From Heptranchias perlo (taxonomy: Eukaryota), in the NCBI RefSeq assembly GCF_035084215.1, contig NC_090363.1:12276001-12340000 (forward strand): a DNA stretch of 64,000 nucleotides. Direction: 5' to 3'. Under the pieces are notes generated by a model, which worked only from the letters and a program-made list of their open reading frames with translations, was not told the DNA's origin and searched no databases. Positions within the stretch are counted from its first letter, which is position 1. Each line of letters starts with the position of its first letter. The position numbers and the translations under genes are program-made. Shown piece by piece: positions 1,215 through 58,654 of this stretch.

Positions 1215-3267
1215 ATGGGACGGGCAGCAGTTTTCTCCGAATCAGTCATTTGCTATCCAATTCTTGCAATTATTGGTCTTCCCAGTAAGTAATAAATTAA
1301 TGACGAAAGGTCATCGACCTGAAACGTTAACTCTGTTCCTTTCTCCAAAGATGCTGCCTCACTGAGTATTTTCAGCATTTTCTGTTTTTATTTCAGAGTT
1401 CCAGAATCCGCAGTATTCTGCGCTTGCAGTAATAACAAGCAATTATTATGTGGACCATTTTTAAAATGCATTGTTGCTTTCACAATGTGCTGTTTGCCTC
1501 CATCTCTTTCTTCCTTGGTTGCCCATTTTATGGTAAGTTTATTGAATAGAAAGCTCTCACTTTGCCTTACTTCTTATAAAAGGAAAACTATTGTGATATT
1601 ATATAAGGCTCTCTAAATGCATACATCAAATGCAAGTTCTCCCGTTTGTTAAACGCCTTGCAATCAGCTACATGGAATAACTGTGACCATCAGGTTTATC
1701 GTGAGGACCCTTATGCGGAGTTTTAACCAGAGTTTATCTTCCAAATGTCAACAGGCCGGTTACGCATCTCCAAGATTCAGTATACCTGACTCACGTGAAT
1801 TCCTAAACTTCTCCCACGCTGTGAATTGACTTTGGGGGCGAATTCAACCTAACCCGACTGTCGGGAAACTGACGGGATCGTGTGCATCGCTGGTTTAATA
1901 CCCCATCCCATTTTATCCACTATTGAACGCAAAGGGTTCTAAAACCGGCGTTTCACGCCATACTTGGGTTAAAATTACCCCTTCTGTCGCATAATTTGAA
2001 GGAAATCAATGGCTGTTTTACTGAACTCTCTTCATCACTTGCTCAGGATGAAATGGCTTCTCATCAGTAATGTGTCTCCGAAAATATTGACAAAATCGTG
2101 AAAGTGTCACAGTAAATCACGTGTGTCAAAGGAGGAGCCAATTTCCAGCAATTCGTATGCTGCACATACTTTATTCTCGACTGGAATCACTTAAATCAGC
2201 AGATAGTAGTGAGTGAATTTGGCACTGTCCTGATCTGGTTCTCTCAGTACAGCACCCGGTGAGACTGGGAGGAATCCGTCTCAGTAACAAGCCTCCTTTC
2301 TCACAAATACCAAACAGCCAATTCCAAAGGAGTGTGATTTTATATCTTGTTTTTTTTTCAATTTATTTCAGCAAACCTGATGTCAGTTGTGATCCTGTCC
2401 CGGGGAAAGTGCGGTCTCTCCAAAGGAATCACTCGTTACATGGCGGCCATGGCAGTAGCAGATCTAATGGTTTGCATGTTTAATGTAATATTACGAAATA
2501 TCTTCAGGTATCATTTTCGAGATTCATGGTTGAGCTACACTTACGTGTGCCGTTTTACTGCTTTTATACAAGTATTTAGTAGCCAGCTCTCTGTCTGGTT
2601 CACAGTTTCATTCACCTTTGACCGCTTCATATCAATTTGTTGTCAGAAACTAAAATTGAAATATTGCACCGAAAGAACTGCCAGTGTAGTTTTAACGACC
2701 ATATGTGTGCTCAGCTTTTTGATGAATATTCCTGTTTATTTCCGATTTGAGCCATACTATATGGTTGATCATATACAGTGGGGCTGCCGTACAGTTACAG
2801 GATATTTTTCTTCACCGGCATGGGTAGCTTACAAATGGATTAGCACTCTCTCAACCCCAATTCTCCCATTCCCTTTGTTATTGCTGTTAAATTCTCTCAC
2901 TGCCAGGCACATCTTAGTGGCCAGTAGATCTCGCAGAGTCCTGAAGAGCCGAAACAATGGGGAGAACCGCAGTGATCCCGAGATGAAGAATCGAAGAACA
3001 TCCATCATTCTGCTCTTCGCTATCTCGGGGAGTTTTATTGTGTTGTGGACGCCGATTACTGTAATAAACATCTGTGTCGGTGTGACGGAGACACTTAGTT
3101 TCAAAGGTTCAAACTCACTTTATTTGGCAATTAGAATCACACTTCTGCTGATGTATTTGAGCTCCTGCACGAACACGTGCATTTATGCATTGACCCAGAG
3201 GAGATTCCGAGAGGAGATGAAGAATATGTTGAAATATCCGGTTACTTTCGTTTTCAAGTTATTTTAA
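1215..3267 (+). CDS. GPR139/GPR142-like class A GPCR, copy A (intact, 2 exons: 1215-1284 + 2372-3267, 321 aa)
   Basis: Exon 1 ATG at 1215 reads MGRAAVFSESVICYPILAIIGLP+A|GTAAGT. Acceptor is polypyrimidine TTTCAG|CA at 2371/2372, and the phase-1 join gives ...GLPTNLMSVVILSRG. 7TM motifs: TM2 AMAVADL, TM3 C...TFDRF, ECL2 WGC, TM6 FIVLWTP, TM7 SSCTNTCIY, helix 8 RRFREE. Confidence 0.9.
1301..1426 (+). mobile_element. Penelope-like element terminal-repeat fragment with degenerate hammerhead ribozyme core (intron 1)
   Basis: TGACGA-A-AGGTC-ATC-GACCT-GAAACGTT followed by ...AGATGCTGCC..CTGAGTATTTT.CAGCATTTTCTGTTTTTATTTCAGA. Homologs at ~14147, 26566, 36498, 49317, 57220. Confidence 0.6.
1834..1981. 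mobile_element. Palindromic MITE-like element in intron of copy A
   Basis: Imperfect terminal inverted repeats GGGGCGAATTCAACC / GGTTAAAATTACCCC and an internal inverted repeat; homologs at 15337-15484, 37031-37178, 50525-50672; absent from C/C'. Confidence 0.55.
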
Positions 3268-3781
3268 TAATTAAATTTTATTTACTCGCATTTTCCTGGG
3301 ATCTAGGTTCGTTGTTGCTACTTGAAGTGTTCGGCTGAGGCCAGGTATTGCACCCATTGGTTCTCATCCTTCCACAACACCAGTTGTCCATTTTCCTACC
3401 TCACAAGGTGATGGCAGTTCCGCTCCTGTTCTAAAACTCGCCATACCGATATGAGAAAACGAATCGCACCGAATTCTCTAAACATATTACTGATAGAATG
3501 TTTTGCGGTATCTAAAAGTTCACAACATTTCACAATGGTTCATTTTTTGAGATGAAAGGACAGAGACCGAAGGTCCCCATCAGTTCTTGTCAAATTTCGG
3601 AATATTCCCTTTGGCTCCTATGAGTGAAAATACCAGATACTCACCGTGAAGAGTCCATCTGGTCTGTGCATGTGAGGGCATCAGTGACTCATTGTGGATA
3701 TTTCTTCTGTATCCAATCCGTCAGGTTATCAGTGTGATCCCTATGTCTAAAGGGTTGGAAGTTATGCTCCAGCGATACAAA

Positions 3782-5889
3782 CATAGAAACATATAGAAAC
3801 ATAGAAAATAGGAGCAGGAGTAGGCATTCGTCACATCAAGCCTGTTCCGCCATTCATTATAATCATGGCTGACCCTCTATCTCAATGCCATATTCCCGCT
3901 CGCTCCCCATACCCCTTGATGCCTTCAGTGTCGAGAAATTTATCTAGCTCCTTCTTAAATATATTTAGTGAATTGGCTTCTACAGCCTTCTGTGGTAGAG
4001 AATTCCACAGATTCACCACACTCTGAGTGAAGAAGCTTCTCCTCATCTCAGTCCTAAATGGCCTACCCCATATCCTGAGACTGTGACTCCTCGTTCTGGA
4101 TCCCACAGCCAGGGGAAACATCCGCCCTGCATCCGGTCTGTCTAGCCCTGTCAGAGTTTTACATATTTCAATGAATACCCTCTCATTCTTCTCAACTGGA
4201 GTAAATACAGGCCGAGTCGACCCAATCTCTCCTCAAACGACAGTGCTGCCATCCCAGGAATCAGCCTGGTGAACATTCGTTGCACTCCCTCTAAGGCAAT
4301 TATATCCTTTATTAGATAAGGAGACCAAAACTGCATACAATACTCCAGATGTGGTCTCACCAAGCCCTGTATAACTGCAGTAAGACATATTAGCTCATGT
4401 ACTCAAATCCTCTTGCAATGAAGGCCAACATACCATTTGCCTTCCTAACTGCTTGCTGCACCTGCATGTTTGCTTTCAGTGACTGGTGTACAAAGACACC
4501 CAGGTCCCTTTGTTCATTAACATTTCCCAGTCCATCACCATTTCAATGATACTCTGCCTTTCTGTTTTTTCTTCCGAAGTGGATAACTTCACATTTATCC
4601 ACATTATACTGCATCTGCCATGTATTTGCCCACTCACTCAACTTACCTCAATCGCCTTGATGCCTCTTTGCTTTCTCCTCACATTTCATGATCCCACCTA
4701 ATTTTGTGTCGTCAGCAAACTTGGAAATATTACATTTGGTTCTCTTCTCCAAATCATTGATATATATTGTGAATAGCTGGGGCCCAAGCACTGATCCCTG
4801 CGGTAACCCACTAGTCACTGCCTGCCACCCCGAAAAAGACCCATTTATTCCAACTCTCTGTTTCCTGACTGTTAACCAATTTTCAATCCACGACAGTATA
4901 TTACCCACAATCCAATGTGCTTTCATTTTTCATGTGGGTCTTTATCAAAGGCTTTCTGAAATTCCAAATAAACCACATCTACTGGTTCTCTCTTACCTAT
5001 TCTACCAGTTATATCCTCAAAAAACTGCAGTGATTTTGTCAAACATGATTATCCTTTCAGAAATCCATGTTGACTTTGTCTAATCCCTTTGATATTTTCT
5101 AAGTGTCCTGTTATCACATTCTTATAATAGACTCTAGCATTTTTCCTACTACTGATGTTAGGCTACCCGGTCTGTTTTCCCTGTTTTCTCTCTCCCTCAA
5201 TTTTTAAAATAGTGGGCTTACATTTGCCACCCTCCAATCTGCAGGAACTGTTCCATAATCGATCGAATTTTGGAAAATGACAACTCATGCATCCACTATT
5301 TCCATGGCTACCGCTTTCAGTATTCTGGGATGCACATTATCAGGCCCTGTGGATTTATCGGCTTTCAGTCCCATTAATTTCTCCAGTACTATTTTTTTAC
5401 TAATACTAATTTCCTTTAATTCCTCCTTCTCACTACTCCCTTGGTTCCCTCGCATTTCTGGGAAGTTATTTGTGTCCTTTTCCGTGAAGACAAAACCGAA
5501 GTATTTGTTCAATTGCTCTGCAATTTCCTTCTTCCCCATTATAAATTCTTCCGTTTCTGACTGTAAGGGACTTACATTTGCCTTCGCTAATCTTCTTCTT
5601 TTTACATACTTATTGAAGCTTTTACAGTCCACTTCTATGTCCCTTGCAAGTTTACTCTCATACTCTATTTTTCACTTCTTAATTGATCTCTTGATCCTTT
5701 TTTGCTGAATTCTAAACTGCTCCCAATCTTCAGGCTTGCTTCTTTTTCCGGTAACTTTATATGATTCCTCTTTTGATCTAATACTATTCTTAATTTCTTT
5801 TGTTAGCCACGGTTAGGCCGCTTTTCCTTTTGTGTTTTCGTGCCAGAAAGGAATGTATAATTGTTGCAATGCATGCATTGCTTCCTGTT
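3782..5889 (-). mobile_element. CR1 LINE, 5'-truncated, A-specific insertion with TSD
   Basis: RT fragments SGLPQGSVLGPQLFTIYINDL, KFADDTKLGG, VRPHLEYC; (TTTCTATG)n-type tail at 3782-3810; TSD ATACAAA at 3775-3781 and 5890-5896; inserted in an older + strand CR1. Confidence 0.9.
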
Positions 5890-6460
5890 ATACAAAGCCC
5901 TGGTTAGACCGCACCTGGAGAACTGTGTACAGTTCAAAGTACCTCAAAATGGAAAGGATATTGAACTTGATGGAAGGGCAGCGTTGATTTACTAGAATGA
6001 TACTTGGACTCCAAGGGTTCAATTGTGAGAGATTACACAAACTAGGGTTGTATTCCCTGGAATGTGGAAGATTAAGGGGTGATTTGCTCGAAGTTTTCAA
6101 GATATTAAAGGGAACTGATATGGTAGATCGAGAGAAAGTATTTACGCTGGTTGAGGACTCTAGGACTAGGGGACATAGCCGAAAAATTACAGCCAGCATC
6201 TTGAGGAGTGAAGTTAGGAAACGCTTCCACACGCAAAGAATGATAGAAGTTTGGAACTCGCTTCGGCAAACGGCAGTTGATGCTAACTCAATTGTTAATT
6301 GTTAATCTGAGATTGATAGATTTTTGTCAACTAAAGGTGTCAAGCGATTTGGGGCGAAGGCGGGTATATTGAGTTAGATCAGAGATCAGCCATGAATTCA
6401 TTCAATGGCAGAACAGGCTCGAGGGGTTAAATGGCCTACTCATGTGCCTATGATCCAATG
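5890..6460 (+). mobile_element. Older CR1 LINE 3' fragment (shared by all units; also 3720-3781)
   Basis: LGLYSLECGRLRGDLLEVFKILKG...SRTRGHS...WNSL, the CR1 ORF2 C-terminus. Confidence 0.8.
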
Positions 6461-7545
6461 TTCCAATGATATCAGAACCATAACAATATGGTATGTAATT
6501 CTGCAACAAGTAAGGGACAGAAATTGTGTTTCTTTGTGACAAGGTCCACAGAGCTCTCCTGACGGGAGATTGATAGACACAGGAAGTCACATCGTTGGGT
6601 GTGCGAGGTTATATAACAATTGGACCATATTGTAAAATAGTAGAATTTGTTTTTAAATTTATTCTCAGAATGTGTACATCCCTGGCTAGGCCGGCATTTA
6701 TTGCCCATCGCTAGTTGACGTGAGAAGGTGATGACCGACCTTCTTCCTTGAATCATCTTTATTGGTATGATACAACTGTGTGGCTTGCATGTCCATTATG
6801 AGGGTAGATAAGAGTCAACCAAGTAACAATAGGCCAGAATCTATGACAGTTTTCCTTCCCTAAAGGACATCATTGAACCGATTCGGTTTTTAAAACTATC
6901 AGATTGCCTTATGATCACTTTTACTGGCTTTTTTTCCAGATGTCCAGGGAAACAGAATTAAAATTCTCATAAAGCGGTGGTGCAATTTGAACTCAAGGTC
7001 TCCGAATTACTAGCCCAGGAATATAACCGCTTCATTGTCGTAACCGTTATATCATTATAATGCACTGTCAAGCTTGCCCAATTCATAAATCTGTGCCTTG
7101 TTTGTTAAAGATCTGCTCCAATTAGAAGATTATGATTTGATTTTTGGCTTTAGGAGCTCAACTATTCGCTTCAATGCTCAAGGACTGAGAACATCTAGAA
7201 GTTGGGCGGGGTCCATTCTCCTGGTCAAATTTAAATGACCTCTCTGCGAAAGTATGCCTGTCTGGAGGCTGGGAGCAGCTCAGCTTGAGTTAAACCTAGA
7301 GTACATCACATGTGGAGAATCACAATGCATCCTGACAGCAGTGAAAGATCACACGCTCTGGACCATGTGTCATACTTCGCAGAAAACCACCGCCTATGTT
7401 TGCACGTGAAATCCCTTACTTTGTGCAGAAATACATCGCATATTTTATTGCTTCTGATACCCTTGCACACGGTGACCAAAGGTATTCTTGATCAGTTCCT
7501 GCTGTCCTCTCACATACAAACCAGTAGTAACCACCCTGTGCTGTA

Positions 7546-7833
7546 GCTGATATTTTCAGTCATATGGACCAACGGCAACTTTTCCGTTCTGCAGATTATA
7601 CAGTCACTCATAGGGACCAGATGGAATCTTCCAGTTATGTACCTGATATCTTCACTCATAGCGACCAAAGGAAATTTTCCCATTGTGCAGATGATACGTT
7701 TACTCATAGGGATCAAAGGGAATCTTCCTATTCTGTATCTGATATTTTCGCTCATAGCGACCTGATGGCTTCCTCACATTTTGTATCTGACATCTTGACT
7801 CGTAGGGAAAATAGGAATCTTCTACCCTTTGTC
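7546..7833. repeat. Degenerate 48-bp tandem repeat, 6 units
   Basis: Units start at 7546, 7594, 7642, 7690, 7738, 7786; consensus approx. CTGATATCTTCACTCATAGGGACCAAAGGGAATCTTCC...TGTA. Confidence 0.85.
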
Positions 7834-9199
7834 AAGCACTGATGGGAATCTTCCCCTGCTGCGTTTTTATCTCAAAAATGAACAATTGTGAACAATATTA
7901 AGGATTAAGTTGTGCATGTGATCGTCTAACATTCATCAGATTCAAACATCTGGATGAAAGTGTCCAATATGTCACTTGTACGTCAATGTTTTCTCCCAGT
8001 CTACATATATTGTAAATTTATCTTCAGAATTGATCGCAACTGGGGCAATTCAAAAATCGAATTCATTGTCCGCATGCCTGATTGATTACTTGTTCGTTCT
8101 GCTGAGCAGATCTGAATCCACATTGCAATGAATTTACCTGATTTTAAAATATTTTAGTTTGCCAAATCTACAGAAATACTTTTCCATGCAATTCGATTTG
8201 ATATAACTGTCCTGCTTGACGTGTCGAAGGCCATTTTATCAGGACAGAAGCAATCTTCCAAGGGGCTGATGTGCAAATTATGTCATTCAGATGATGATAA
8301 ACTTAGGCAAGAAACGTTGATGGATTAAAAGAGAAAAGTTGATTATATCGGCCTGCTATCAACAAAATGGTGGATAGGATTGCACAATGAATGATAAAAG
8401 TAATTATTTTGGGAAAGGAACGGAGTGATGCAGAGAACAGATTGTGGGGAGTTCCTCAGTTGAAAAAAGGAATCAGGCGATGCGCCATGATCAACTGCGC
8501 AGATAGAGGGTCATTTGCGGATGTTTGTCAGCAATAAGCCAATCTTTTATTCAAAATCTTCTGATATTAGCTTGTTTAGTTGTTCAAATGTCAATCCATG
8601 TCAATGGCGTTGACTATCAGCAAATTAAATTTTCAAAATACTCACCAGTAGGAATCTGGTGGTGTATCGATATATATCGAGGACATCGGTATAACTGCCT
8701 CACCGAACTCCATGCTGGTGTTCAAAGATTAGAAGAGATCTTTCATGTCGATGAAGTAATTAAGATTTGAAAATTCCCTCCTTAATTTTGGAAAACACAG
8801 GGTTAAGTGCTTAACCTTGGCCTTTAGTTAGAAAGTCAGGGCTATCGACGTTCTTTGGGATAGAATGTTGACAAACAGCTCTTTAACTGAAAAGGATATG
8901 AGGAATGAATGCAACCGACAGTGTGTAAATAGAAGAACACGTGGCTGAGATCAGACACATGAATCTAGAGAACCAAAGGAAGAATTCTACCAGAATTAGA
9001 ATTTTTTGGAGTCAATGACAGGCAGGATCCGACATACAGTTTATGATAATCTTGACAACATTACATAAAATGGCCGTGAGAAAGCCTTGAAGACATTTTA
9101 GTGAAGTTTCACTGTATGGTTGGTATTTTAATATATTCCAATTTCGCTTTCAAAAGCTTAACACACGTTAAAACACGTGCATGAGACAGGAAGTCAACG

Positions 9200-10465
9200 T
9201 GGGAAAAGGAGTATGTCATTCAGTCCCTCGAGACTTTTCCGCTGTTCAATGAGGTCATGACTTATCTGTAACCTAATTTCATCCACCCGCCTTGGCTCCA
9301 TATCCTTAAATAACCTTGGCTGGAAAAACTGTCAAAGATCTCAGATTTAAAGTTATTAATTGAAGTAGCATCTATTGCTTTTTGTGGGAGAGAGTTCCAC
9401 ATTGAGAATCTATGTGTGAAGAAAGATTTCCCAACTTCTCTCCTCAATGGCCTTGCTCTGAATTTAAGGTTATGGCCCTTTGTCCTCGACTCCACAATCA
9501 GCAGAAAAAAAATTCGCTCTATCTATCCTATCAATTCCTTTCAAAATCCGAAAAAACGTCAATCAAATCACCCGTTAACCTTCTATATTCGAAGGACGAC
9601 AAGCCTGGTTTGTGTATTCTCACCTCATAATCTAATCCTTGGATCCCTGGTAACATTCACGTGAATTTGCGCTGCACTCCTTCCAAGGCCAATATATCCT
9701 TTCTGAGGCGCAGTGCCCAGAACTGTACACAGTACTCCAGATGTAGACTAACCAGGGTTTTGTATAGCTGTGGCAAACATTCCTGTCCTTTCTATTCTAT
9801 CCCTCTCCTGATGAAGGCTAACATTCCATTAGTCTTTTTGATAATTTTTTCTACCTGACGACTACATTTTACTGATCTGTGCAGATGGAGCACAAAATCT
9901 CCTTGGACCTCCAATGTTCCTAACTTTTCAGCATTCAAAAATATTCGGATCAATCCCTTTTTGGTACAATATGGATGACCTCACACTTGCCTGAATTGAA
10001 ATTACAATAATTTCCCCACAACAAATGTTAGATTATTAGATTTTAAATGTCATGGTATTTCTCTCTCATTTTTCTTAAATAATGGAGTTACATTTGCAGT
10101 ATTCCAATCTAAAGGGCCAATTCCAGAATCGGGAGTGCTGTGAATATTATGGCGAAAGCATCTGCAATTTCCTCACCTACTTCCTTTAAAATCCTGGGGG
10201 TAAAGTATAAGGCCTGGGGATTTGTCATTCTATACGGCCATCAATATTTCTAATTCAGTTTTCTTGCGTACATTATCGTCAGTGAGTTCCAGTCCTTGAT
10301 TCATTATTAGATTCCCTGGAATGTAAGGAATATTATCCTATTCCTCTACTGTGAAGACTAGCACAAAGGAATCATTCATCACGTCAGCCATTTCCTTATT
10401 TTCATTAGCAATATTACCAGCATCTTTTTTGATTACACTTTTTCTTCTACTATAATGATAAACAC
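9200..10465 (-). mobile_element. Old CR1 LINE fragments
   Basis: Minus-strand SRTKGHNLK...FFTHR...WNSLP and LHLEYCVQFWA homology. Confidence 0.75.
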
Positions 10466-10814
10466 ATTTGTAAATTCCCTGCTATCGTTACAAAGGCAGG
10501 AGTTGGGGTTGTTCAATGGAGATGGGGAATTTGCTCAATTCAATACGGTCAGAATTAGATTGTGTCCCTCACATCCACACTGTTCACAGTAAACATCCTG
10601 AGGCAATGAAATGTGTAACCGTGTCTGAGAAATTTCAAAGTGACGAAACACACAAAGGAAGAGTCGATGGGAGAATATACGAAACCTGAGGCCCAGTACA
10701 GAGCACAAGGAAGGTGTTAGCAGCAATTACGGTTTTGCATCTGTTGTGTATTTGCAGCAGATGCTGTTTAACTTTAGTTCTTTAATGTAGTCGCTGGACA
10801 GCGAGTGCTGTGCC

Positions 10815-11022
10815 TGGGGAGGCTGGGTTACTTGGGCACAAGGGGAGTCGGAGATAGGCGGTGAGGGTACCTGCGGTCCTTGGGCAACAGTGTGAAGGGG
10901 AGATAGGCTGCGAGGTGTCCCTGGGTTGCTTGTGCCACAGAGAAGGGGAAGGCAGGTGTTGAGGGAGCCCTGGGCTGCTTGGAACAAAGCGGGAAGCGGA
11001 AACAGGCTGCAAGGGGTCCTTG
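10815..11022. repeat. G-rich degenerate ~49-bp tandem repeat (~4 units)
   Basis: Recurring CTGGG.TGCTTGGGCACA...GGGGAGA.AGGCTGCGAGGG..CC; homologs at 23289-23486 and ~45995-46192. Confidence 0.7.
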
Positions 11023-11164
11023 GATTATATTATGTGAACAGTGACACGGATACACACATCCGTTGAACAGTCATTAACACATGACCCGTGTCTGTGCTGA
11101 CCCATTTGTGACACATTTTTAATATCAAATCAAAAATTCCTCGGTATGACAGGGACTTTCCGTC

Positions 11165-11545
11165 AATCATTCCCTTTTACTCACGGTGTAAGTACATGTA
11201 CAGGAGCTGACATTGAGACACACATGTGGCATTAAAGTATCAGACGGGACTGAATCGTTCCCTTAAACCCACTGTGTACTGTACATGTATAGGAGCTGAA
11301 ACTGAGACACACATGGACCATACAGTACCAGACGAGAGTGAATCGTTCCCTTGTACCCGCTGTGTGCTGTACACGTAGATGAGCTGACATTGAAACACAC
11401 AGAGGCCGTACAGTACCAGACGGGTGTGAATTATTCCCTTTCACCCGCTGTGTGCTGTACAATTCCAAAGCTGAAACTGAGACACACACGAGCCATACAG
11501 TCCCAGGCGGGAGCGAATCATTACCATTTACTGTGTATGGTATTA
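11165..11545. repeat. Degenerate ~88-bp tandem repeat (~4 units)
   Basis: TACATGTA..GGAGCTGACACTGAGACACAC..GGCCATACAGTACCAGACGGGAGTGAATC.TTCCCTT units starting at 11193, 11282, 11370, 11458. Confidence 0.85.
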
Positions 11546-11549
11546 CATA

Positions 11550-12195
11550 GATTTACAAAGAATTTACAGCACAGCAACAGGCCATTCGGCCCAACTGGTC
11601 TGTGCTCGTTTTTATACTCCGCACAAGCCTCGTTCCACTTTATTTTATCTAAACCGATCTGCATGTCCTCGATCACTTTCTCCGACATGTACTTATCATG
11701 CTTCCCCTTAACTACATTTCTACTATTCGTCTGAACTGCTCCATGTGGTAGCAAGTTCCACATTCTAACAACTTTGTGGGTTTCTCCTGAATTCTTTATT
11801 GGATTTATTGGGAAATATCTTATTTTTATGGCCCCTCGTTTTAGATTCCTCCATTATTGGTAACATCTTCTCTACATTTCTCCTCTCAAACACCTTCATA
11901 ATTTTGAAGATCTCGATTAGGTCACCGCTCAGCCTTCTGTTTTCTGGAGAAAAGATCTCCAGCCTGTTTGGTTTTTCCAGATATTTGTACCCTCTCAATT
12001 TTGATATCATCCTTGTAAACCTTTTTTGAACCTTTTCCAGTGCCTCTATACTCTTTTGCAACATGGAGACTGGAGCTGTCGGCAGTGCTCCAAGTGTGGT
12101 CCAACCAACATTCCATACATGTTTAACATAACTTCTCTGCTTTTCAATTCTATTCATTTAGAAATGAACCCCTGTGCTTTGTTTGCATCTTTAGG
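11550..12195 (-). mobile_element. CR1 LINE 3' fragment
   Basis: IEALEKVQKRFTRMI...RRLSGDLIEIFKIMK...SKTRGHK. Confidence 0.78.
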
Positions 12196-12199
12196 GCCT

Positions 12200-24010: not shown

Positions 24011-24019
24011 GTGTTACAT

Positions 24020-46334: not shown

Positions 46335-46715
46335 AATCATTCCCTTTTACTCACGGTGTAAGTACATGTACAGGAGCTGACATTGAGACACACATGTGGC
46401 ATTAAAGTATCAGACGGGACTGAATCATTCCCTTAAACCCACTGTGTACTGTACATGTATAGGAGCTGAAACTGAGACACACATGGACCATACAGTACCA
46501 GACGAGAGTGAATCGTTCCCTTGTACCCGCTGTGTGCTGTACACGTAGAGGAGCTGACATTGAAACACACAGAGGCCGTACAGTACCAGACGGGTGTGAA
46601 TTATTCCCTTTCACCCGCTGTGTGCTGTACAATTCCAAAGCTGAAACTGAGACACACACGAGCCATACAGTCCCAGGCGGGAGCGAATCATTACCATTTA
46701 CTGTGTATGGTATTA
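46335..46715. repeat. ~88-bp tandem repeat (duplicate of 11165-11545)
   Basis: Near-identical sequence. Confidence 0.85.
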
Positions 46716-46719
46716 CATA

Positions 46720-48560: not shown

Positions 48561-49126
48561 CATTGCAGATATGTTATATTGATCAAAATAACCATTCAGG
48601 GTATAACATTGGTGACAATGGTCACTCAATCGCCGACCATGTTATGCTGGTGAAATTGTGTTACTTGCACTGACACCTAATTGAACAGTGCTGCCGGGTG
48701 ATGACCCATTTTATATTCCACTCCCAGCTTCGATACTGTATGTCATCAAGTCAATACGATTTACTCTATCACTCTATCACTCTCACAGCTTTTTGATATT
48801 ATTTACACTTTGACTCTCATGTGCTAACGGACGGGTTCACATTTTATTCCCCTTCTTCTCCATTTAACTTTCAGTTTTTATGACTGAAGAAACGAAGCCA
48901 TCGCAGAATGAATTAAAGCATCGTGTTCCCAAGAGCAGAATAACGCAATCAAGATGATGTAATGAGGTAACAGGTTCAGAGCGGGGTATTCATAAGCCTG
49001 AGAATGCCCATTGGAGCCTCGAATTACTCACTGCCTCATTAAGTGATCGTTTGGAAAATAAATATGTTCCAATGTGTTTGTTCCAGCGCGCGTGGCTGAT
49101 ACCGGGTTTAATGTAAAACCACTGTC

Positions 49127-49154
49127 TCCCTGTGGGACTGACTGGTGTATAAAA
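49127..49154 (+). promoter_or_regulatory. Putative core promoter of copy B' (TATAAAA 49148-49154)
   Basis: Duplicate of 13957-13984. Confidence 0.58.
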
Positions 49155-49230
49155 CACCTCCTGTTTCAATGCATTGTCTTTGTGTCCAAACCAGAGCCTT
49201 GCATCCACGATTGTCTCGCTTAGGCAGGAA

Positions 49231-51948
49231 ATGGGAGGATCAGCAATTTTCTACGAATCAGTCATTTGCTATCCAATTCTTGCAATTATTGGTCTTCCCA
49301 GTAAGTAATAAGTTAATGACGAAAGGTCATCGACCTGAACCGTTAACTCTGCTTCTTTACCACAGATGCTGGCTCACTGAGTATTTTCGGCATTTTCTGA
49401 TATTTTTCAGATTTCTAGGATCCGCAGTATTTTGCTTTTGAAGTAATAACAAGCATTTATTTTTTGAACCATTGTTTAATTACATTGTTGCTTTTAATAC
49501 ATGCTGTTTGCCTCTATATCTTTGTTCCTTGGTTGCCCATTTTTAAAAATTCGTTAGTGGGATGTGGGCGTCGCTGGCGATGCCAGCATTTATTGCCCAT
49601 CCCTAATTGCGCTCGAGAAGGTGGTGGTGAGAAGGTGGTGGTGAGCCGCCTTCTTGAACCGCTGCAGTCCGTGTGGTGAAGGTTCTCCCACAGTGCTGTT
49701 AGGAAGGGAGTTCCAGGATTTTGACCCAGCGACGATGAAGGAACGGCGATATATTTCCAAGTCGGGATGGTGTGTGACTTGGAGGGGAACGTGCAGGTGG
49801 TGTTGTTCCCATGTGCCTGCTGCTCTTGTCCATCTAGGTGATAGAGGTCGCGGGTTTGGGAGGTGCTTTTGAAGAAGCCTTGGCGAGTTGATGCAGTGCA
49901 TCCTGTGGATGGTACACACTGCAGCCACAGTGCGCCGGTGGTGATGGGAGTGAATGTTTAGGGTGGTGGATGGGGTGTCAATCAAGTGGGCTGCTTTATC
50001 TTGGATGGTGTCGAGCTTTTTGAGTGTTGTTGGAGCTGCACTCATCCAATCAAGTGGAGAGTATTCCATCACACTCCTGACATGTGTCTTGTAGATGGTG
50101 GAAAGGCTTTGGGGAGTCAGGAGGTGAGTCACTCGCCGCAGAATACCCAGCCTCTGACCTGCTCTCGTAGCCACAGTATTTGTATGGCTGATAGGTGGTA
50201 GGTGGTAATCAGCAGGAGGTTTCAGCAGCAGCAGGTGGTTAGATTATTGATTCGAAATCTCTCACTTCTTATTTACTTCAAAATGACAACTTTTGTGATA
50301 TTATATCAGGCTCTCTGAATGTCTGCATCAAATGCAAGTTCTTCCCTTTGTTAAACGACGCGCAATCAGCCACCTGGAATAACTGTGGCCATCAGGTCGA
50401 ACGCGAGGATCCTTATGCGGAGTTTTAAATTGAATTTCTCTTCCAGATGTTAACAGGCCTGGTGTGCATCTCCAAGATGCTGTATTTCCGACTCCTGAAT
50501 TTTGTCACGCTGTGACTTGACTTTGGAGGCAAAATTAATCCAACCCGACAGTCGGGAAACTGACGGGGTCGAGTGTTACGCTGGTTTTATACCCCACCAG
50601 ATTTCACCCTCCATTGAAGTTAATGGGGTGTAAAACCGGCGTTTCACCCGATCCGTGGGTTAAAATTACCCCTTTTCTGTCAGAATTTGAAGCAAATCAA
50701 TGGCTATTTTACTGAACTCTGTTCATTACCCTCACACGAGGACGCGGCTTCTCATCAGTAATGTGAAACTGTCACATTAAATCACGTGTGACAAAGGAAG
50801 AGCCAATTTCGTTATTGGCACATACTTTATTCTCGAATGAGGTCAATTAAATCAGCACAGTAGTGAGTGAACTTGGTACCACCCTGTTCTGGTTGTCTCA
50901 GCAACCCACCCAGTGAGACTCGGAGGAATCCGTTTCAGTAACAAGCCTCCTGTCTCACAGCGACGAAACATTCAATTCCAAGGGAGTGTGATTTTATATC
51001 GCTAATCTATTTCTTCGTTAATTCTCCTGGTTTTTCCAATTTCTTACAGCGAACCTGATGTCAGTTGTGATCCTGTCACGGGGAAAGTGCGGTCTCTCCA
51101 AAGGAATCACTCGTTACATGGCGGCCATGGCATTGGCAGATCTAATGGTTTGCATGTTTAATGTAATTTTGCAAAACATCTTTCGGTATCATATTCTAAA
51201 TTCATGGTTGAGCTACACTTACGTGTGCCGTTTTACTGCTTTTATACAAGTATTTAGTAGCCAACTCTCTGTCTGGTTCACAGTATCATTCACCTTTGAC
51301 CGCTTCATATCGATTTGTTGTCAGAAACTAAAATTAAAATATTGCACCGAAAGAACTGCCTCTGTAGTTTTAACGATCGTGTGTTTGCTCAGCTTTTTGA
51401 TGAATATTCCTGTTTATTTCCGTTACGAGCCCTACTCTATTATTGACGATATACCGTGGGGCTGCCGTACAGTATCAGGACATTTTTATTCACCGGCATG
51501 GGTAGCTTACAAATGGATCAACACTCTCTCATCCCCAATTCTCCCATTCCCTTTGTTATTGCTGTTAAATTCTCTCACTGCCAGGCACATCTTAGTGGCC
51601 AGTAGATCTCGCAGAGCCCTGAAGAGCCGAAACAATGGGGAGAACAGCAGTGATCCCGAGATGAAGAACCGAAGAACATCCATCATTCTGCTCTTCGCTA
51701 TCTCGGGGAGTTTTATTGTGTTGTGGACGCCGATTACTGTAATAAACATCTGTGTCGGTGTGACGGAGACACCTACTTTCAAAGGTTCAAACTCACTTTA
51801 TTTGGCAATTAGAATCGCACTTCTGCTGATGTATTTGAGCTCCTGCACGAACACGTGCATTTATGTACTGACCCAGAGGAGATTCCGAGAGGAGATGAAG
51901 AATATGGTGAAATATCCGGTTACTGTCATTACTAAATTATTTAAATAA
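49231..51948 (+). CDS. GPR139/GPR142-like class A GPCR, copy B' (intact, exons 49231-49300 + 51050-51948, 322 aa)
   Basis: Exon 1 matches B; donor GTAAGT at 49301, acceptor TTACAG|CG at 51049/51050; open 7TM ORF to 51948. Confidence 0.9.
49545..50193 (-). mobile_element. Young LINE 3' end in intron of copy B' (duplicate of 14376-15005)
   Basis: ORF 49590-50174; carries a private short tandem duplication of GAGAAGGTGGTGGT near 49615-49642. Confidence 0.85.
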
Positions 51949-52389
51949 TTAAATTTTAATTCCTCGTATTTTCCTGGTATCCAGGTTCGTTGTTGCTACT
52001 TGAAGTGTTCGGCTGAGGCCAAATATTGCACCCATTGGTTCTCAACCTTCCACAACACCAGTTGGCCATTTTCCGACCTCACAAGGTGATGGTAGTTACG
52101 CTGCTGTTCTAAAACTCGCAATACCGATATCAGAAAACAAACCACACCGAATTTTCCAAACATATTGCTGAAATAATGTTTTAACATAAACTTCACAACG
52201 TTTCACAATTGTTCATTTTTTGAGGTGAAAGCACAGCGAGCAATGGTGCCCACCGGTTCTCAATGATTTGCAGAAGATTCCCTTTGGCTGCTACTATGAA
52301 GATATCAGATACACAACGTGAAGATTCCATCTGGTCTGCACGTGTGAGGGCATCAGAAACTCATCGGGAATGCTTCTTTTGTATCCAGT

Positions 52390-53025
52390 CTTAAAGGATG
52401 TCAGTTTTGGTTCCTGTGTGTAAGGGGTTGGAAGTTATGCTACAGCTATAGAAAGCCCTGGTTCGACCTCACCTGATATACTGTGTACAGCTCTGAGCAC
52501 CGCACCTTAGGAAGGTTATATTGATCTTGGAGTGGGTGCAGCATAGGTTTGCTAGAATGATAACTGGAATCCAAGGGTTAAATTAGGTGAGATTACACAA
52601 ACTATGGTTGTATTCCCTAGATTTTAGAAGATTAAGGTGCGAGTTGATCAAAGTTTTCAAGATATTAAGGGGAACTGAAAGGGTAAATATAGAGAAACAA
52701 TTTCCGCTGGTCGGGGAGTCCAGGACCAGTGGGATACCGCCTAAAAATCGAGCCAGAACCTTCAGGAGTGAAGTCAGGAAACACTTCAACTGGGGTGGTA
52801 GAAGTTTGGAACTCTGTTCGGCAATCGGCGGTTGATGCCAGCTCGATTGTTAATTTGAAATCAGAGATTGATCTATTTTTGTTATTCATAGGTATTAAAG
52901 GATTTGGGGCAAAGCCGGGTATATGAAGTTAATTCACAGATCAGCCATGAACTCATTGAACGGCAGAACCGCCTCCAGTGGCTAAATGGCCTACTCCTGT
53001 TCCTATGATGTCATGTTCCTATGAT
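52390..53025 (+). mobile_element. Older CR1 3' fragment (duplicate of 17200-17835)
   Basis: ORF 52587-52835. Confidence 0.78.
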
Positions 53026-54026
53026 ATCAGAGACACAACAATATATGTATTTCTGCAAAAAGGGACAGAAATTTTGTTTCTTTGTGATAAGCTCCACAAC
53101 TGTCTCCTGACTGGAGATTAATAGACACGGGAAGTCACATCACTGGGTGTGCGAGATTATATAACAATTGGACCATATTGTAAAATAACGGGACTTATTT
53201 ATTTAATTTATTCTTTGAATGTGGGCATCCCTGGATAGGCCGGACTTTATTGTCCATCGCTAATTGTCCTGTGAACCTTTTGTTTTATTCGTTCATGGGT
53301 TGTGAGCGTCGCTAGCAAGGCCAGCATTCATTGCCCATCTCGAATTGCCCTTGAGAAGGTGGTGGTGAGCCGCCTTCTTGAACCGCCGCAGTCCGTGTGG
53401 TGAAGGTTCTCCCACAGTGCTGGTGATGGCAGGCCTTCTGCCTTGAATCACTGTCAGTTGTTTGAAACAAATGTGTGGATTGTGTGGCCACTTTACAGCG
53501 TAGCGAACCATTACACTACCGTAGCCATGACTTCATTATAACGCAGTGTCCAGCTGGCCCAATCCGTGAATCTGAGCCTTGCTTGTAAATCATCCGTTCC
53601 AATTAGACGATCATGATTTGATTTTTGGCGTTAGGAGCTCAACAATTCGCTTCAATGCTCAAGGACTGGGGATGTGTAAAAGTTGGGCGTGGTCCGCTCT
53701 CCTGGTCAAATTTAAATGACCCCTCTGCGAAAGTGTGCCTGTCTGGATTCCAGGAAGAGCTCAGCTTGAATTAACCCAAGGTTATATCTCATGTCGAGAA
53801 TCACAGTGCATCCTCACAGGCAATGGATGATCATACCCTCAGGACCATGTGTCAGAATTAGCGGAAAACTTCCGTCGATGTTTACCTGCGAAATCCCTTA
53901 CATTTTGCAGAAATACATATCATATTGTATTGCAGATGATATCCGTGCACACGGAGACCAAGGTATTCCAGATCAGTTCTTGATGTCCTCAGACGCACAG
54001 TTCAGTTGCAATTTCAGTGTTCTGTC

Positions 54027-54263
54027 GCTGATATTTTTACTCATATGGACCAAATGCAATCTTTCTGTTCTGCAGATGATATGGTCAATCAGAGGGAGCA
54101 AATGAATCTTCCAGTTTTGTTTCAGATATCTTCACTATTGGGAACAAAGTTCATTTTCCCATTGTGTAGATGATACATTTACTCAAAGCGATGAAAGGGA
54201 ATCTTCCCATTGTGTATCTGACATCTTGACTGGTAGGGAAAAAAGGAATCTTCTATCCTTTGT
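54027..54263. repeat. 48-bp tandem repeat, 5 units (unit B')
   Basis: Duplicate of 18839-19075. Confidence 0.75.
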
Positions 54264-55612
54264 CAAGCACTGATGGGAATCTTTCCCAACTGCGTTTTCA
54301 TCTCAAAAATGAACAATTGTGAAAAATATTAAGGATTAAGTTACGCATGTGATCATCTAACGTTCACCAGATTGAAACATCTGGATGAAAGTGTCCAATA
54401 TGTCACTTGTACGTCAATGTTTTCTCCCAGTCTACATATATTGTAAATCTATCTTCAGAATTGATCGCAAGTGGGGCAATTCAAAAATCGAATTCATTGT
54501 CCGCATGCCTGATTGATTACTTTTTCTGTGCAGATCTGAATCAAATTGAAATGAATTTGTGATTTTAAAATATTTTAGAAAGCCAAATCTACAGAAATAC
54601 TTTTCCATGCAATTTGATTTGATATAACTGTCCTGCTTAACGAGTCGGAGGCCATTTTATCAGGGCATGAGTAATCTTCGAAGGGGCTGATGTGCAAATG
54701 ACATCATTCATGGTTCCATGATTGGACGGTAATAAATTTCGGCAAGAAACATTGGCGGATTAAAAGAGGAAAGTTGATTATATCGGCCTGCTATCAACAA
54801 AATGGTGGATATAATTGCATGATGAATGATAAAAGTAATTATTTTGGGAAAGGAACGGAATGATGCAGCAAACAGACTGTGGGGAGGTCCTCAATTGAAA
54901 ATAAAAGACTCAGGCGAAGGGCCATGAGCAACCGCGCAAATGGAGGGACATACGGGAAGTTTGACAGCAATAAGCCAATCGTTCATTCAAAATCTTAGTA
55001 TATTATCTTGTTTAGTTGTTCAAATGTTAAACCCTGTCAATGGCTTTGAATATCAGGAAAGTAAATTCCCAAATACTCACCAGTAGGAATATGATGGTTT
55101 ATGAAGGGGCTAAAAAGGGCATCAGTAGAACTGCCTCACCGAACTCCATACTGGTGATCAGAGATTAGAAGAGAACTTTCAGGTCGATGGATTAATTAAG
55201 TTTTAAAATTTGCCACCTAAATTTTGGAAAACACAGGGTTAAGTGCAATCGGCCCTTAGTTAGAAAGTCAGAGCAATCGACGTTCTTTGGGATAGAACTT
55301 TGACAAACAGCACTATAAGTAAAAAGGATATGAGGAATGAATGTAACCGACAGTGTGTAAACAGAACAACGCGTGCCTGAGATCAGACACATGCATCTCG
55401 AGAACCATAGGAAGAATTCTACCAGAGTTAGAGGTTTTTGGAGTCAATGAAAGGCATAATCCAACATACAGTTTATTATAATGTTGAAACATTACATAAA
55501 GTGACCGTGAGAATGCCTTGAAGACATTTTAGTGAAGTCTCACTATATGATTGGTATATTAATATATTCCAATTTGGCTTTCGCAATATTAACCCACATT
55601 CAAACATGTGTA

Positions 55613-57171
55613 TGGGGTAGGAAATCAACATAGGAACAAGAATAAACAATTCAGTCCCTCGACCCTTTCCGCTGTTCAATGAGATCATGGCTGATCTGTA
55701 TCCTAACTCCATCCACCCGCCTTGGTTCCTGATCCTTTAATAACCTTGGCTAGCAAAACTGTTATCGATCTCAGATTTAAAGTTATGAATTGAAGTAGCA
55801 TCTGTTGCTTTTAGTGGGAGAGAGTTCCACATTGCTACCACTCTATGTGTGAAGAAATGTTTCCTAATTTCTCTCCTGAATGGCCTGGTTATGATTTTAA
55901 GGTTATGTCCCCTTGTCCAAGACTCCCCAACCAGCGGAATTTTGTTCCCTCCATCAACCCTAGCAAATCCTTTCAAAATCCTAAAAACGTCAATTAAATC
56001 ACCCGTTAACCTTCTATATTCGAGGTGCTACAAACCTGGTTTGTGTATTCTCACCATATAATCTCACCCTTGGAGCCCTGGTAACATTTCTTCACTCAAC
56101 GGGGTGGTGAACCTATGGAATTCTCTACCACAGAATGCTATGGAGGCCAAGTCACTGAATATATTTAAGAAGGAGCTAGATAGATTTCCAGACACAAAAG
56201 GCATCAAGGGGTATGGGAAGAGAGCGGGAATATGGTATTGAGATAGAGGATCAGCCATAATCATATTGAATGACGCAGCAGTCTCGAAGGGCCGAATGGC
56301 ATAATCCTGCTCCTATTTTCTATGTTTCTATGTAACATTCTGGTGAATTTGCACTGCACTCCTTCCAAGGCCAATATATCCTTTCGGAGGCGCAATGCCC
56401 AGAACTGTACACAGTACTCCAGATGTAGTTTAACCAGGGCTTTGTATCGCTGTTGCAATCCTTCCTCCTTTTTATATTCTGGCCCTCTTGTTATTAAGGC
56501 GAACATTCCATTAGTTTTTTTGATTATTTTTTGTACCTGACTACTACATTTTAGTGATCTGTGTAGATGGACCATTAAATCTCTTTGGACCTCCACTGTT
56601 CCTAACTTTTCACCATTGAAAATTGCTCGGATCAATCCTTTTTTGGTCCTCGCACTTTTGGATGACCTCACACTTGCCTGAATTGAAATTTCAATAACTT
56701 CTCCACATCGAATGTTAGACTCACAGATTTATAATTTCCTGGTACTCACTCTCGTCTTTCTTAAATAATGGAGTTACATTTGCCGTATTCCAATCTAAAG
56801 ACGCAATTCCAGAATCGAGAGAGCTTGGGAAGATTATGGCTAAAGCATCTGCAATTTCCTCACCTCCTTCCTTTAAAATCCTGGGATGGAAACCATCAGG
56901 TCCTGGGGATTTGTCAGTCTATACTGCCCTTATTAATCCTAATTTTGTTGTCTTGCTTACATTAACGTCAGTGAGTTTCAGTCCTTGATTCATTATTAGC
57001 TTCCCTGGAGTGTTCGGTATATTATCCTTTTCCTCTACTGTGAAGATTGACACAAAATAATTATTCAACAAGTCTGCCACTTCCTTATTTTCATTTGCAA
57101 TATTACCAGCGTCTGTTTTGATTACCGTTTTTCTTCTAATATAATCGTAAACACCTTTTGTGTTGATCTTG
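55613..57171 (-). mobile_element. Old CR1 fragments with nested CR1 (56089-56331), truncated by the deletion
   Basis: Duplicate of 20425-21983. Confidence 0.78.
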
Positions 57172-58654
57172 CTATCCAATTCTGGCAATTATTGGTCTTC
57201 CCAGTAAGTAATAAATTAATGATGAAAGGTCATCGACCTGAAACGTTAACTTTGCTTGTTTGCCACAGATGCTGCCTCACTGAGTATTTCCAGCATTTTC
57301 TGTTTTTATTTCAGAGTTCCAGCATCCGCAGTATTCTGCTCTTGCAGGAATAACAAGCATGTATTAAGTGAAACATAAATGCATTGTTGCTTTCACGTTT
57401 TGCTGTTTGCCTCCATCTCTTTGTTCCTTGGTTGCCCATTTTATGATAAGCTGATTGAATAGAAATCTCTCACTTATCCTTATTTTCTTCAAAACGATAA
57501 CTATTGTGATATTATAGAGTGCTCTCGAAACGTATACATCAAATGCAAGTTCTCCCCTTTGATAAGCGCCTTGCAATTAGCTACCTGGAATACCTGTGGC
57601 CATCAGGTTTATCGTGAGGATCATTATGCGGAGTTTTAACCAGATTTCTCTGGCCTCCTTTCTCATAAATGATAAACAGCCAATGCTAAAGGAGTGTGAT
57701 TTTATATCGCTGATCTATTTCTTTGTGATTCTCCTGCTTTCTTTCCAATTTCTTTCAGCGAACCTGATGTCAGTTGTGATCCTGTCCCGGGGAAAGTGCA
57801 GTCTCTCCAAAGGAATCACTCGTTACATGGCGGCCATGGCAGTAGCAGATCTAATGGTTTGCATGTTTAATGTCATTTTGCAAAATATCTTCAGGTATCA
57901 TTTTCTAGATTCATGGTTGAGCTACACTTACGTGTGCCGTTTTACTGCTTTTATACAAGTATTTAGCAGCCAACTCTCTGTCTGGTTCACAGTATCATTC
58001 ACGTTTGACCGCTTCATATCCATTTGTTGTCAGAAACTAAAATTAAAATATTGCACCGAAAGAACTGCCACTATAGTTTTAATGATCGTGTGTGCGCTCA
58101 GCTTTTTGATGAATATTCCTGTTTATCTCCGTTATGAGCCCTACTCTATTATTGACGATATACAGTGGGGGTGCCGTACAGTAACAGGATATTATTCTTC
58201 ATCCGCATGGGTAGCGTACAAATGGATTAGCACTCTCTCATCCCCAATTCTCCCATTCCCTTTGTTATTGCTGTTAAATTCTCTCACGGCCAGGCACATC
58301 TTAGTGGCCAGTAGATCACGCAGAGCCCTGAAGAGCCGCAACAACGGGGATAACAGCAGTGATCCCGAGATGAAGAACCGAAGAACATCCATCATTCTGC
58401 CCTTCGCTATCTCGGGCAGTTTTATTGTGTTGTGGACGCCGATTACTGTAATAAACATCTGTGTCGGTGTGACGGAGACACCTACTTTCAAAGGTTCAAA
58501 CTCACTTTATTTGGCAATTGGAATCACACTTCTGCTGATGTATTTGAGCTCCTGCACGAACACGTACATTTATGCATTGACCCAGAGGAGATTCCGTGAG
58601 GAGATGAAGAATATGGTGAAATATCCATTTACTGTCGTTAAGTTATTTAAATAA
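57170..58654 (+). pseudogene. GPR139-like GPCR copy C', 5'-truncated (promoter, ATG and first 12 codons deleted; exon-1 remnant 57170-57203, exon 2 57759-58654)
   Basis: Only CYPILAIIGLP|GTAAGT remains, fused to CR1 sequence with an in-frame TGA just upstream (57164-57166). Exon 2 is open but carries L>P (IILPFAIS) and R>G (LAIGITL). Confidence 0.8.

What the first reader, a model, noticed from the sequence alone, without database searches (positions are those of the whole stretch)
1215..58654. Tandem birth-and-death array of GPR139/GPR142-like receptors: candidate lineage-specific chemosensory or ligand-sensing repertoire
Seen: six head-to-tail copies of a compact two-exon 7TM gene with a very short extracellular N-terminus; four are intact and two were disabled independently. 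Established: mammalian GPR139 and GPR142 are single-copy receptors activated by aromatic amino acids (L-Trp, L-Phe); cartilaginous fishes have few classical odorant receptors; OR, TAAR and V1R families evolve as tandem clusters with frequent pseudogenisation. Inference: this cluster behaves like a sensory or immune-type receptor family built on a GPR139-like scaffold, possibly an under-recognised amino-acid/peptide chemoreceptor system.
Basis: partly seen in the sequence, partly recalled or inferred. Interest (0 to 1): 0.85.

Follow-up and report, generated by a model that had tools for sequence, protein, structure and literature searches.

The report
Expanded shark orphan receptor gene family
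This stretch of shark DNA holds six side-by-side copies (four working, two broken) of a cell-surface receptor from a large, little-studied shark and ray gene family whose ligand pocket varies widely between members, as in smell or immune receptors, although what it senses and where it is used are unknown.

Summary
Observation confirmed: six head-to-tail two-exon class A GPCR genes, four intact, one with a nonsense codon, one missing its promoter and start through a 4.5-kb deletion. They are really three paralog types doubled by a recent ~35-kb block duplication (99% identical). Paralogs are under purifying selection (dN/dS 0.35).

They are not GPR139 orthologs: catshark keeps a true GPR139 (81% to mouse), while these are ~20% identical to human GPR139 and keep 1 of its 4 Trp/Phe-pocket residues. 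They belong to a large shark/ray family (1,885 clusters hit; 117 of the 120 seen are named elasmobranch proteins), sister (99/98) to an apparently single-copy amphibian/sturgeon orphan. At matched background divergence, pocket identity is 98% among amphibian orthologs but 66% among same-species shark paralogs; pocket charge spans -6 to +5. That fits a multi-ligand repertoire. However, the four intact window copies share 30 of 33 pocket residues, so this array itself is mostly redundant.

No expression or ligand data were found; a chemosensory, immune or internal role is open. No description turned up in the paper library searched.

The parts
1132..1138 (+). TATA box of copy 1, 83 bp before ATG; same spacing at 13978, 26397, 36329, 49148
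   Evidence: role as promoter is inferred
1215..1284 (+). copy 1 exon 1 (N-terminus and first half of TM1)
2372..3267 (+). copy 1 exon 2 (rest of 7TM); intact, 321 aa spliced
14061..14130 (+). copy 2 exon 1
15862..16760 (+). copy 2 exon 2; intact, 322 aa spliced; its ORF from the internal Met matches database protein P0003 (zero branch length)
26480..26549 (+). copy 3 exon 1
27105..28000 (+). copy 3 exon 2; intact, 321 aa spliced
36412..36481 (+). copy 4 exon 1 (duplicate of copy 1)
37570..38465 (+). copy 4 exon 2; pseudogene, CGA>TGA at codon 65 (37692-37694)
49231..49300 (+). copy 5 exon 1 (duplicate of copy 2)
51050..51948 (+). copy 5 exon 2; intact, 322 aa spliced
57170..57203 (+). copy 6 exon 1 remnant at the junction of a ~4.53-kb deletion that removed promoter and start codon
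57759..58654 (+). copy 6 exon 2 (duplicate of copy 3); open frame but no start; also L238P and R278G
1..33345 (+). first block of the higher-order three-gene repeat (period ~35.2 kb; may begin before the window)
35198..64000 (+). second block, 98.8-98.9% identical to the first, carrying the deletion; runs off the window end

Best explanation
The window is a piece of a tandem array belonging to an elasmobranch-expanded class A GPCR family. The family descends from an old jawed-vertebrate orphan paralog in the GPR139/GPR142/FMRFamide-receptor-like clade, which survives as an apparently single, pocket-conserved gene in amphibians (plus a sturgeon homolog). In sharks and rays it was multiplied by unequal crossover (inferred from the nested tandem blocks). 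The cytoplasmic G-protein face stayed conserved while the extracellular pocket diversified, giving a multi-ligand receptor repertoire that signals through a common pathway, as OR/TAAR/V1R or MRGPR-type families do. The three local types are young, near-redundant variants that differ mainly in ECL2. Their pocket is basic (+4/+5, no acidic residue), so I predict a water-soluble anionic ligand (peptide C-terminus, carboxylate or sulfate) rather than GPR139-style Trp/Phe binding. SHOWN: gene anatomy, purifying selection, phylogenetic placement, pocket diversification at family level. INFERRED: expression, ligand class, G-protein coupling and tissue. My split for tissue, given a repertoire: external chemosensation ~45%, immune/barrier ~35%, internal gut or brain sensing ~20%.
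For: Class A 7TM with beta-hairpin ECL2 and a C3.25/ECL2 cysteine pair. dN/dS 0.28-0.41 in 12 of 12 between-type pairs; pooled 0.35, Fisher p<1e-4. Family + amphibian/sturgeon clade 99/98. 20 amphibian clusters, one per named species. Species- or order-restricted subclades for Heptranchias, Mustelus, Narcine, Pristiophorus and carpet sharks. Outer-half entropy 1.94 vs inner 1.02 bits, p=4e-17, 84 sequences. Pocket variability 0.21x average in amphibians vs 1.13-1.95x in five shark groups. At 80-90% non-pocket identity, pocket identity is 98% (99 amphibian pairs) vs 66% (102 same-species shark pairs). Pocket net charge -6..+5 across 125 shark rows vs +3 in 20 of 20 amphibians. Non-synonymous changes among local types enriched in ECL2, p=1e-4.
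Against: No expression or ligand data found. Intact window copies share 30 of 33 pocket residues. No region shows dN/dS>1 (outer 0.41, ECL2 0.50), and ECL2 synonymous changes are also raised (p=0.02), so ECL2 divergence need not be adaptive. Pocket vs other outer-helix positions is significant only for the whole family, not in 4 of 4 shark subclades. Pairs are not phylogenetically independent, and the pocket positions are generic class A positions recalled by me, not from a ligand-bound structure. The closest database models start at an internal Met and omit exon 1, which may mean no transcript support. No GPCRs were among the top 50 catshark brain+olfactory genes (PMC11979771). True GPR139/142 could not be put in the tree.
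Confidence: 0.65

Rival explanations
1. Genomic-drift amplification: a dispensable orphan receptor sits in a recombination-prone, repeat-rich region and is copied and lost without selection for new ligands. Pocket variability reflects relaxed ligand constraint while fold and coupling stay constrained.
For: 2 of 3 genes in the newest block died within <1% divergence. Local pockets are nearly identical. No dN/dS>1. Units are full of retroelement fragments and satellites.
Against: The family spans 18 named shark, ray and skate species with deep subfamilies. Pocket identity falls well below non-pocket identity (66% vs 84%; 32% vs 64%), and charge flips from -6 to +5. Core motifs are kept in about 122-130 of 131 rows.
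Confidence: 0.2
2. GPR139-like amino-acid sensors: the copies detect L-Trp/L-Phe through the GPR139 binding site.
For: GPR139 is the best solved match to the family profile, 84.9 vs 60.2 bits. The amphibian sister gene keeps F3.33, W6.48 and N7.39 in 20 of 20.
Against: The window has V/S(N)/W/L at F109/H187/W241/N271 (PMC5430874 abstract; mapping); 0 of 131 shark rows keep all four. As a single sequence, mu-opioid receptor outscores GPR139 (42.8 vs 32.6 bits). Catshark has a separate true GPR139.
Confidence: 0.08
3. The second block is an alternative haplotype assembled in tandem, so the locus has three genes and c4/c6 are null alleles. This affects the copy count only, not the family-level reading.
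For: The blocks are 99% identical; one type-specific insertion (3782-5888) differs at only 4 of ~2100 bases.
Against: No N gap in the window. The join runs through ordinary unit spacer 79-87% similar to other units. 271 substitutions in 28,788 bases with only 9 indel events, and ts/tv 0.9 like older paralogs (0.8-0.9), so the differences are not read errors. Near-identical sister proteins lie on the same 21-Mb contig.
Confidence: 0.15

Closest known systems
GPR139 (human; PDB 7VUG) and GPR142
   Same: Best solved match to the family profile. Shares the LGxPAN-L TM1, N at 5.58, loss of P7.50 and a short N-terminus; the database label is 'probable G-protein coupled receptor 139'.
   Different: ~20% identity. 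Keeps 1 of 4 ligand residues. Has C3.25 and an ECL2 Cys, which the aligned GPR139 lacks. Multicopy; sharks also carry a true GPR139, 81.3% to mouse. GPR142 was not compared directly.
Amphibian/sturgeon orphan labelled 'probable GPR139' (P0210, P0269-P0288)
   Same: Sister clade 99/98. Same 24-26-residue N-terminal segment and DPE-x-xRR motif before TM6; 28-34% identity to copy 1.
   Different: One cluster per species with an almost invariant pocket (7 distinct pocket strings in 20) vs 129 in 131 shark rows (gaps counted). D2.50 is N in amphibians.
GPR210A/B and a third unnamed GPR139/142-related fish set (Rinne et al. 2019, PMC6504862, passages)
   Same: Extra GPR139/142-related orphan subtypes in gar, teleosts and coelacanth; unnamed P0220/P0227/P0254/P0259 may be these (my guess).
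   Different: That survey has no mention of sharks; the P0220 group lies outside the shark+amphibian clade. Identity with GPR210 was not testable.
OR, TAAR, V1R/ORA chemoreceptor families; MRGPR and FPR repertoires (the last two recalled)
   Same: Tandem clusters, pseudogenes, lineage-specific expansion, variable pocket with conserved cytoplasmic face.
   Different: Different scaffold: only Pfam 7tm_1 hits; an intron splits TM1; no canonical O/E site near the promoters. Catshark has only 8 OR/OR-like, 3 ORA and 3 TAAR genes (PMC11979771 section 13).
Protostome FMRFamide/MIP/proctolin receptor clade and nematode Srw chemoreceptors
   Same: Published as sharing an origin with GPR139/142 (PMC8514136, PMC12208981 passages). 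Atlas neighbours include Srw-bearing clusters.
   Different: The window proteins have no Srw Pfam hit; invertebrate rows are a distant outgroup. A chemosensory expansion here would be an independent vertebrate event.

Membership tests
Class A (rhodopsin) GPCR | 7tm_1 domain, seven helices, N1.50, D2.50, C3.25, DRx, P5.50, W6.48, N7.49/Y7.53 | tested here: met
   Pfam E 1e-23 to 1e-25 for 3 of 3 exon-2 proteins; AF2 pLDDT 81.7, exon 2 only; motifs
GPR139 ortholog | High identity to mammalian GPR139 (catshark ortholog 81.3%) | tested here: not met
   20% in structural alignment to 7VUG; catshark ortholog row in PMC13200729 supplement
GPR139 ortholog | Trp/Phe pocket F109, H187, W241, N271 | tested here: not met
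   V, S/N, W, L in window; 0 of 131 shark rows have all four
GPR142 ortholog | Orthology by tree or synteny | not testable with these tools
   No GPR142 sequence was returned by any search
GPR139/142/FMRFaR-like superclade | Closest profile match is GPR139; N5.58; no P7.50 | tested here: met
   84.9 vs 60.2 bits; N5.58 in 130 of 131, NTxxY; atlas neighbours
GPR139/142/FMRFaR-like superclade | Groups with true GPR139/142 in a phylogeny | not testable with these tools
   True GPR139/142 not available as usable rows; trees lack them
GPR139/142/FMRFaR-like superclade | Structural nearest neighbour is GPR139 | tested here: inconclusive
   Foldseek rank 7 among near-ties; VIA top rows tied at Z 23-25 among peptide receptors
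GPR210A/B (Rinne 2019) | Orthology to the named Ensembl coelacanth/gar proteins | not testable with these tools
   Ensembl ids cannot be fetched; one search gives ids only
OR / TAAR / V1R families (membership) | Family Pfam profile (7tm_4, V1R) and intronless coding region (recalled) | tested here: not met
   Only 7tm_1 at E<=0.01; coding intron in TM1
Chemoreceptor-type repertoire (works like) | Tandem clusters with pseudogenes and lineage-specific expansion | tested here: met
Chemoreceptor-type repertoire (works like) | Variable ligand pocket, conserved G-protein face | tested here: met
   Family level. Not met among the four intact window copies (30 of 33 shared)
Chemoreceptor-type repertoire (works like) | Positive selection on extracellular sites | tested here: inconclusive
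   Only six DNA sequences; outer dN/dS 0.41, ECL2 0.50
Chemoreceptor-type repertoire (works like) | Sparse expression in sensory cells; activation by external ligands | not testable with these tools
   No expression table reachable

The most novel reading that the evidence does not exclude
Sharks and rays have an unrecognised chemosensory receptor family, probably tens to over a hundred genes per genome, built from a GPR139-clade orphan that stayed single-copy in amphibians. It is expressed one or a few per cell in olfactory, taste or skin/gill chemosensory cells and makes up for their tiny OR/TAAR/V1R repertoire. It would be a vertebrate parallel to the Srw-type chemoreceptor expansions from the same peptide-receptor clade in protostomes.
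Probability: 0.3. Interest if true: 0.92.

Novelty: new variant of a known kind. Interest (0 to 1): 0.7.

Why it matters
Cartilaginous fishes are described as GPCR-poor (PMC8455134 passage), with about 8 OR-like, 3 TAAR, 3 ORA and 32 V2R genes in catshark (PMC11979771 section 13), which sits oddly with their reputation for chemical sensing. A large family hidden under the automatic label 'probable GPR139' (and, in the nearest models, under unrelated names and without exon 1) could be a missing chemosensory or immune receptor repertoire. It is testable at once with existing catshark tissue RNA-seq. The pocket-conserved amphibian sister gene gives a tractable single-copy handle (Xenopus) on the ancestral ligand.

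Tried and rejected
Literature: ten searches. Those aimed at this family listed no paper describing it; GPR139+shark gave 4 papers whose listings are on other topics (passages read for one). The library lacks most subscription journals and bioRxiv supplements.

Expression tables: the PMC11979771 supplement is too large to read. No hits in supplements of PMC13188829, PMC11589584 (one file unreadable) or PMC10529500. PMC8455134 gave no GPR139 row (74, 78; file 19 cut). Its orthogroup OG0000365 (157 proteins, 12 taxa, 7tm_1) could be this family but could not be identified (82, 85, 87).

Structure search did not discriminate among class A peptide receptors (34, 86).

OR-type promoter (motifs recalled): no O/E site near promoters, 2 matches vs 5.7 expected; TCATTA is kept in the four intact copies, but the 6-mer occurs 47 times in the window. 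NF-kB idea for the 48-bp array rejected: 10-mer 6 vs 11.6 expected; the 11-mer excess comes from duplicated repeats.

The 48-bp array as a second coding gene: frameshifted in unit 2, no Pfam hit. No Rfam hit. Read-error origin of block differences rejected by ts/tv and indel counts. Attempt to reach true GPR139 through amphioxus relatives returned 11 amphioxus-clade and 3 unnamed proteins. Cluster-member accession lists could not be obtained, so per-genome copy number is only a lower bound.
Full report
1. Observation. Six long + strand ORFs encode near-identical 7TM proteins. A short exon 1 ending CCA|GTAAGT lies 0.55-1.75 kb upstream of each. Splicing in a script gives open proteins of 321, 322, 321 and 322 aa for c1, c2, c3 and c5, with 24 residues before N1.50 and no extracellular N-glycosylation site. 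Copy 4 has CGA>TGA at codon 65. Copy 6 keeps only the last ~33 bases of exon 1, because a ~4.53-kb deletion joined at a TG microhomology removed its promoter and ATG. tblastn finds no seventh copy.

2. Architecture. Self-alignment shows that 1-21989 recurs at 35198-57177 (98.9%) and 26516-33345 at 57170-64000 (98.8%), while the three ~11-13-kb units within a block are 79-88% alike. The window is therefore a three-gene higher-order repeat, doubled recently, with both dead genes in the second block. The blocks differ at 271 of 28,788 aligned bases with 9 indel events; ts/tv is about 0.9, as among older paralogs (0.81-0.89), so these are real differences. There is no N gap and the join passes through ordinary spacer, which favours true tandem duplication. 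A misplaced haplotype cannot be excluded without reads.

3. Selection. Between types, dS is 0.106-0.138 and dN/dS 0.28-0.41 in 12 of 12 pairs; flanks diverge 0.117-0.219 in 12 segments. Pooled over c1, c2, c3, dN/dS is 0.35 (p<1e-4): outer half 0.41, inner 0.28, ECL2 0.50. The genes have been kept functional, but no positive selection is shown. ECL2 is enriched for non-synonymous (p=1e-4) and also synonymous (p=0.02) change.

4. Family. Exon 2 hits 1,885 clusters (90% identity) at E<=1e-10 among 2,625 candidates. I saw the best 120: 117 are named shark, ray or skate proteins from 18 species and 3 are unnamed; the other 1,765 were not seen. The nearest are Heptranchias perlo proteins (87-95%). 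They carry unrelated automatic names (C5a, cephalotocin, melatonin receptor-like) and start at an internal Met without exon 1. Copy 2 matches P0003, on a contig of the same length as those hits, so the window is probably from this hexanchiform shark (inference). In the top 120 alone, 36 H. perlo-named clusters plus P0003 hold 122 member sequences on 16 contig lengths (my sum; isoforms or other species may be included). A profile of 84 members finds 140 clusters at 50% identity with E<=1e-30.

5. Placement. As a single sequence, the best solved match is mu-opioid receptor (42.8 bits; GPR139 32.6). As a profile it is GPR139 (84.9 vs 60.2). Structure searches show a peptide-receptor-like class A fold with a beta-hairpin ECL2 but do not discriminate. 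The best full-length non-elasmobranch hit I identified, P0210, is a Pleurodeles protein; it retrieves 20 amphibian clusters, one per named species, and one sturgeon protein. IQ-TREE on 49 rows joins the elasmobranch family with this amphibian/sturgeon gene at 99/98; the family alone has 93/69. FastTree on 171 rows (11 gene models with large internal indels or without names left out) puts the window copies in an H. perlo-only clade (0.993) and shows separate expansions in Mustelus, Narcine, Pristiophorus and carpet sharks. True GPR139 and GPR142 could not be included. A supplement of PMC13200729 lists catshark GPR139 at 81.3% identity to mouse, whereas the window protein aligns to human GPR139 at 20%. 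It is not the ortholog. Rinne et al. (PMC6504862, passages) name extra GPR139/142-related fish subtypes (GPR210A/B) but do not mention sharks.

6. Pocket. F109, H187, W241 and N271 are required for GPR139 activation by Trp/Phe and surrogate agonists (PMC5430874 abstract). Mapped through the alignment, the window has V, S/N, W, L. None of 131 shark rows has all four, while 20 of 20 amphibian orthologs have F, Q, W, N. Across 84 members the outer half is far more variable than the inner half (1.94 vs 1.02 bits, p=4e-17). For 33 generic class A pocket positions (recalled numbering), variability is 0.21x the protein average in amphibian orthologs but 1.13-1.95x in five shark groups. At 80-90% non-pocket identity, pocket identity is 98% for 99 amphibian pairs and 66% for 102 same-species shark pairs; at 60-70% it is 86% vs 32% (pairs not independent). 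Pocket net charge is +3 in all amphibians and -6 to +5 across 125 shark rows; the intact window copies have 4-5 basic and no acidic residues. Against the repertoire reading: the four intact window copies share 30 of 33 pocket residues, and pocket vs other outer-helix positions is significant only for the whole family.

7. Mechanism. Most likely (0.65), an ancestral single-ligand orphan with a GPR139-like aromatic pocket was amplified by unequal crossover in elasmobranchs into a repertoire with common G-protein coupling and many pockets. The window shows the newest, still redundant layer, with rapid loss of extra copies. I predict anionic, water-soluble ligands for these copies. Tissue is unknown. 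Catshark has few OR/TAAR/ORA genes, often expressed outside the nose (PMC11979771 section 13), which leaves room for a further family. The same paper found no GPCR among the top 50 brain+olfactory genes, and immune or barrier sensing is nearly as plausible. Rivals: drift (0.2), GPR139-type amino-acid sensing (0.08) and, for copy count only, haplotype duplication (0.15).

8. Novelty. The proteins are in public annotations, but eight searches aimed at the family listed no paper describing it, and the whale shark genome paper speaks of a paucity of GPCRs in cartilaginous fishes (PMC8455134 passage). The library omits most subscription journals and bioRxiv supplements, and the key catshark expression supplement was unreadable, so prior description or existing expression evidence is not excluded.

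Papers seen: section 13 and passages of PMC11979771; passages of PMC6504862, PMC12208981, PMC10620051, PMC3963977, PMC8514136 and PMC8455134 (plus supplement searches); abstract and outline of PMC5430874; supplement searches only for PMC13188829, PMC13200729, PMC11589584 and PMC10529500; listing plus empty term searches for PMC6367278 and PMC12287315.

Verdict: real, ordinary as a tandem array, but a window onto an apparently undescribed, pocket-diversified vertebrate GPCR family. Interest 0.7.

Noticed in passing
7520-7823, 18815-19066, 30104-30411 (duplicates 42718-43021, 54003-54239, 60759-61066); inverted single copy at 3600-3664 and equivalents: Each unit carries a 48-bp tandem array (about 5-6 diverged copies; 0-2% indels by TRF where reported) 2-4 kb after the stop, plus an inverted copy ~330 bp after the stop. 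An open 16-aa-repeat frame exists in units 1 and 3 but is frameshifted in unit 2; no Pfam or Rfam hit.
   Followed up: partly
11162-11531, 23628-24002, 33670-33955, 46332-46701: 88-bp tandem array about 2.5 kb upstream of the genes, part of the duplicated unit.
   Followed up: no
998-1003 and equivalents (13866, 26263, 49036); mutated at 36199: TCATTA (reverse complement of a homeodomain site recalled from OR promoters) is kept in the four intact copies and mutated in pseudogene c4. Weak: the 6-mer occurs 47 times in the window.
   Followed up: partly
whole window, e.g. 3782-5888, 11768-12586, 14375-15047, 21076-21519, 24579-24944: Degraded retroelement-like fragments fill the spacers; some are type-specific insertions. 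Only 24579-24944 gave a weak RVT_1 match (E 0.008, below the cutoff) among 10 ORFs scanned.
   Followed up: partly
whole window: The transition/transversion ratio among duplicated sequences is only 0.8-0.9, low for a vertebrate (expectation recalled).
   Followed up: no
database proteins P0001-P0006: The closest annotated models are 275-276 aa, start at an internal Met (no TM1) and carry unrelated receptor names, so annotation hides and truncates this subfamily.
   Followed up: yes
P0210, P0269-P0288: An apparently single-copy amphibian/sturgeon orphan GPCR with an almost invariant pocket retaining F3.33, W6.48 and N7.39 of GPR139, and N at 2.50; no amniote appeared among the 25 hits.
   Followed up: partly
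2580 and 2616 vs 37778 and 37814; 16058-16077 vs 51246-51265: At 23 of 253 block differences in shared sequence, both alleles occur among older paralogs, a hint of gene conversion or recombination within the array; not formally tested.
   Followed up: partly
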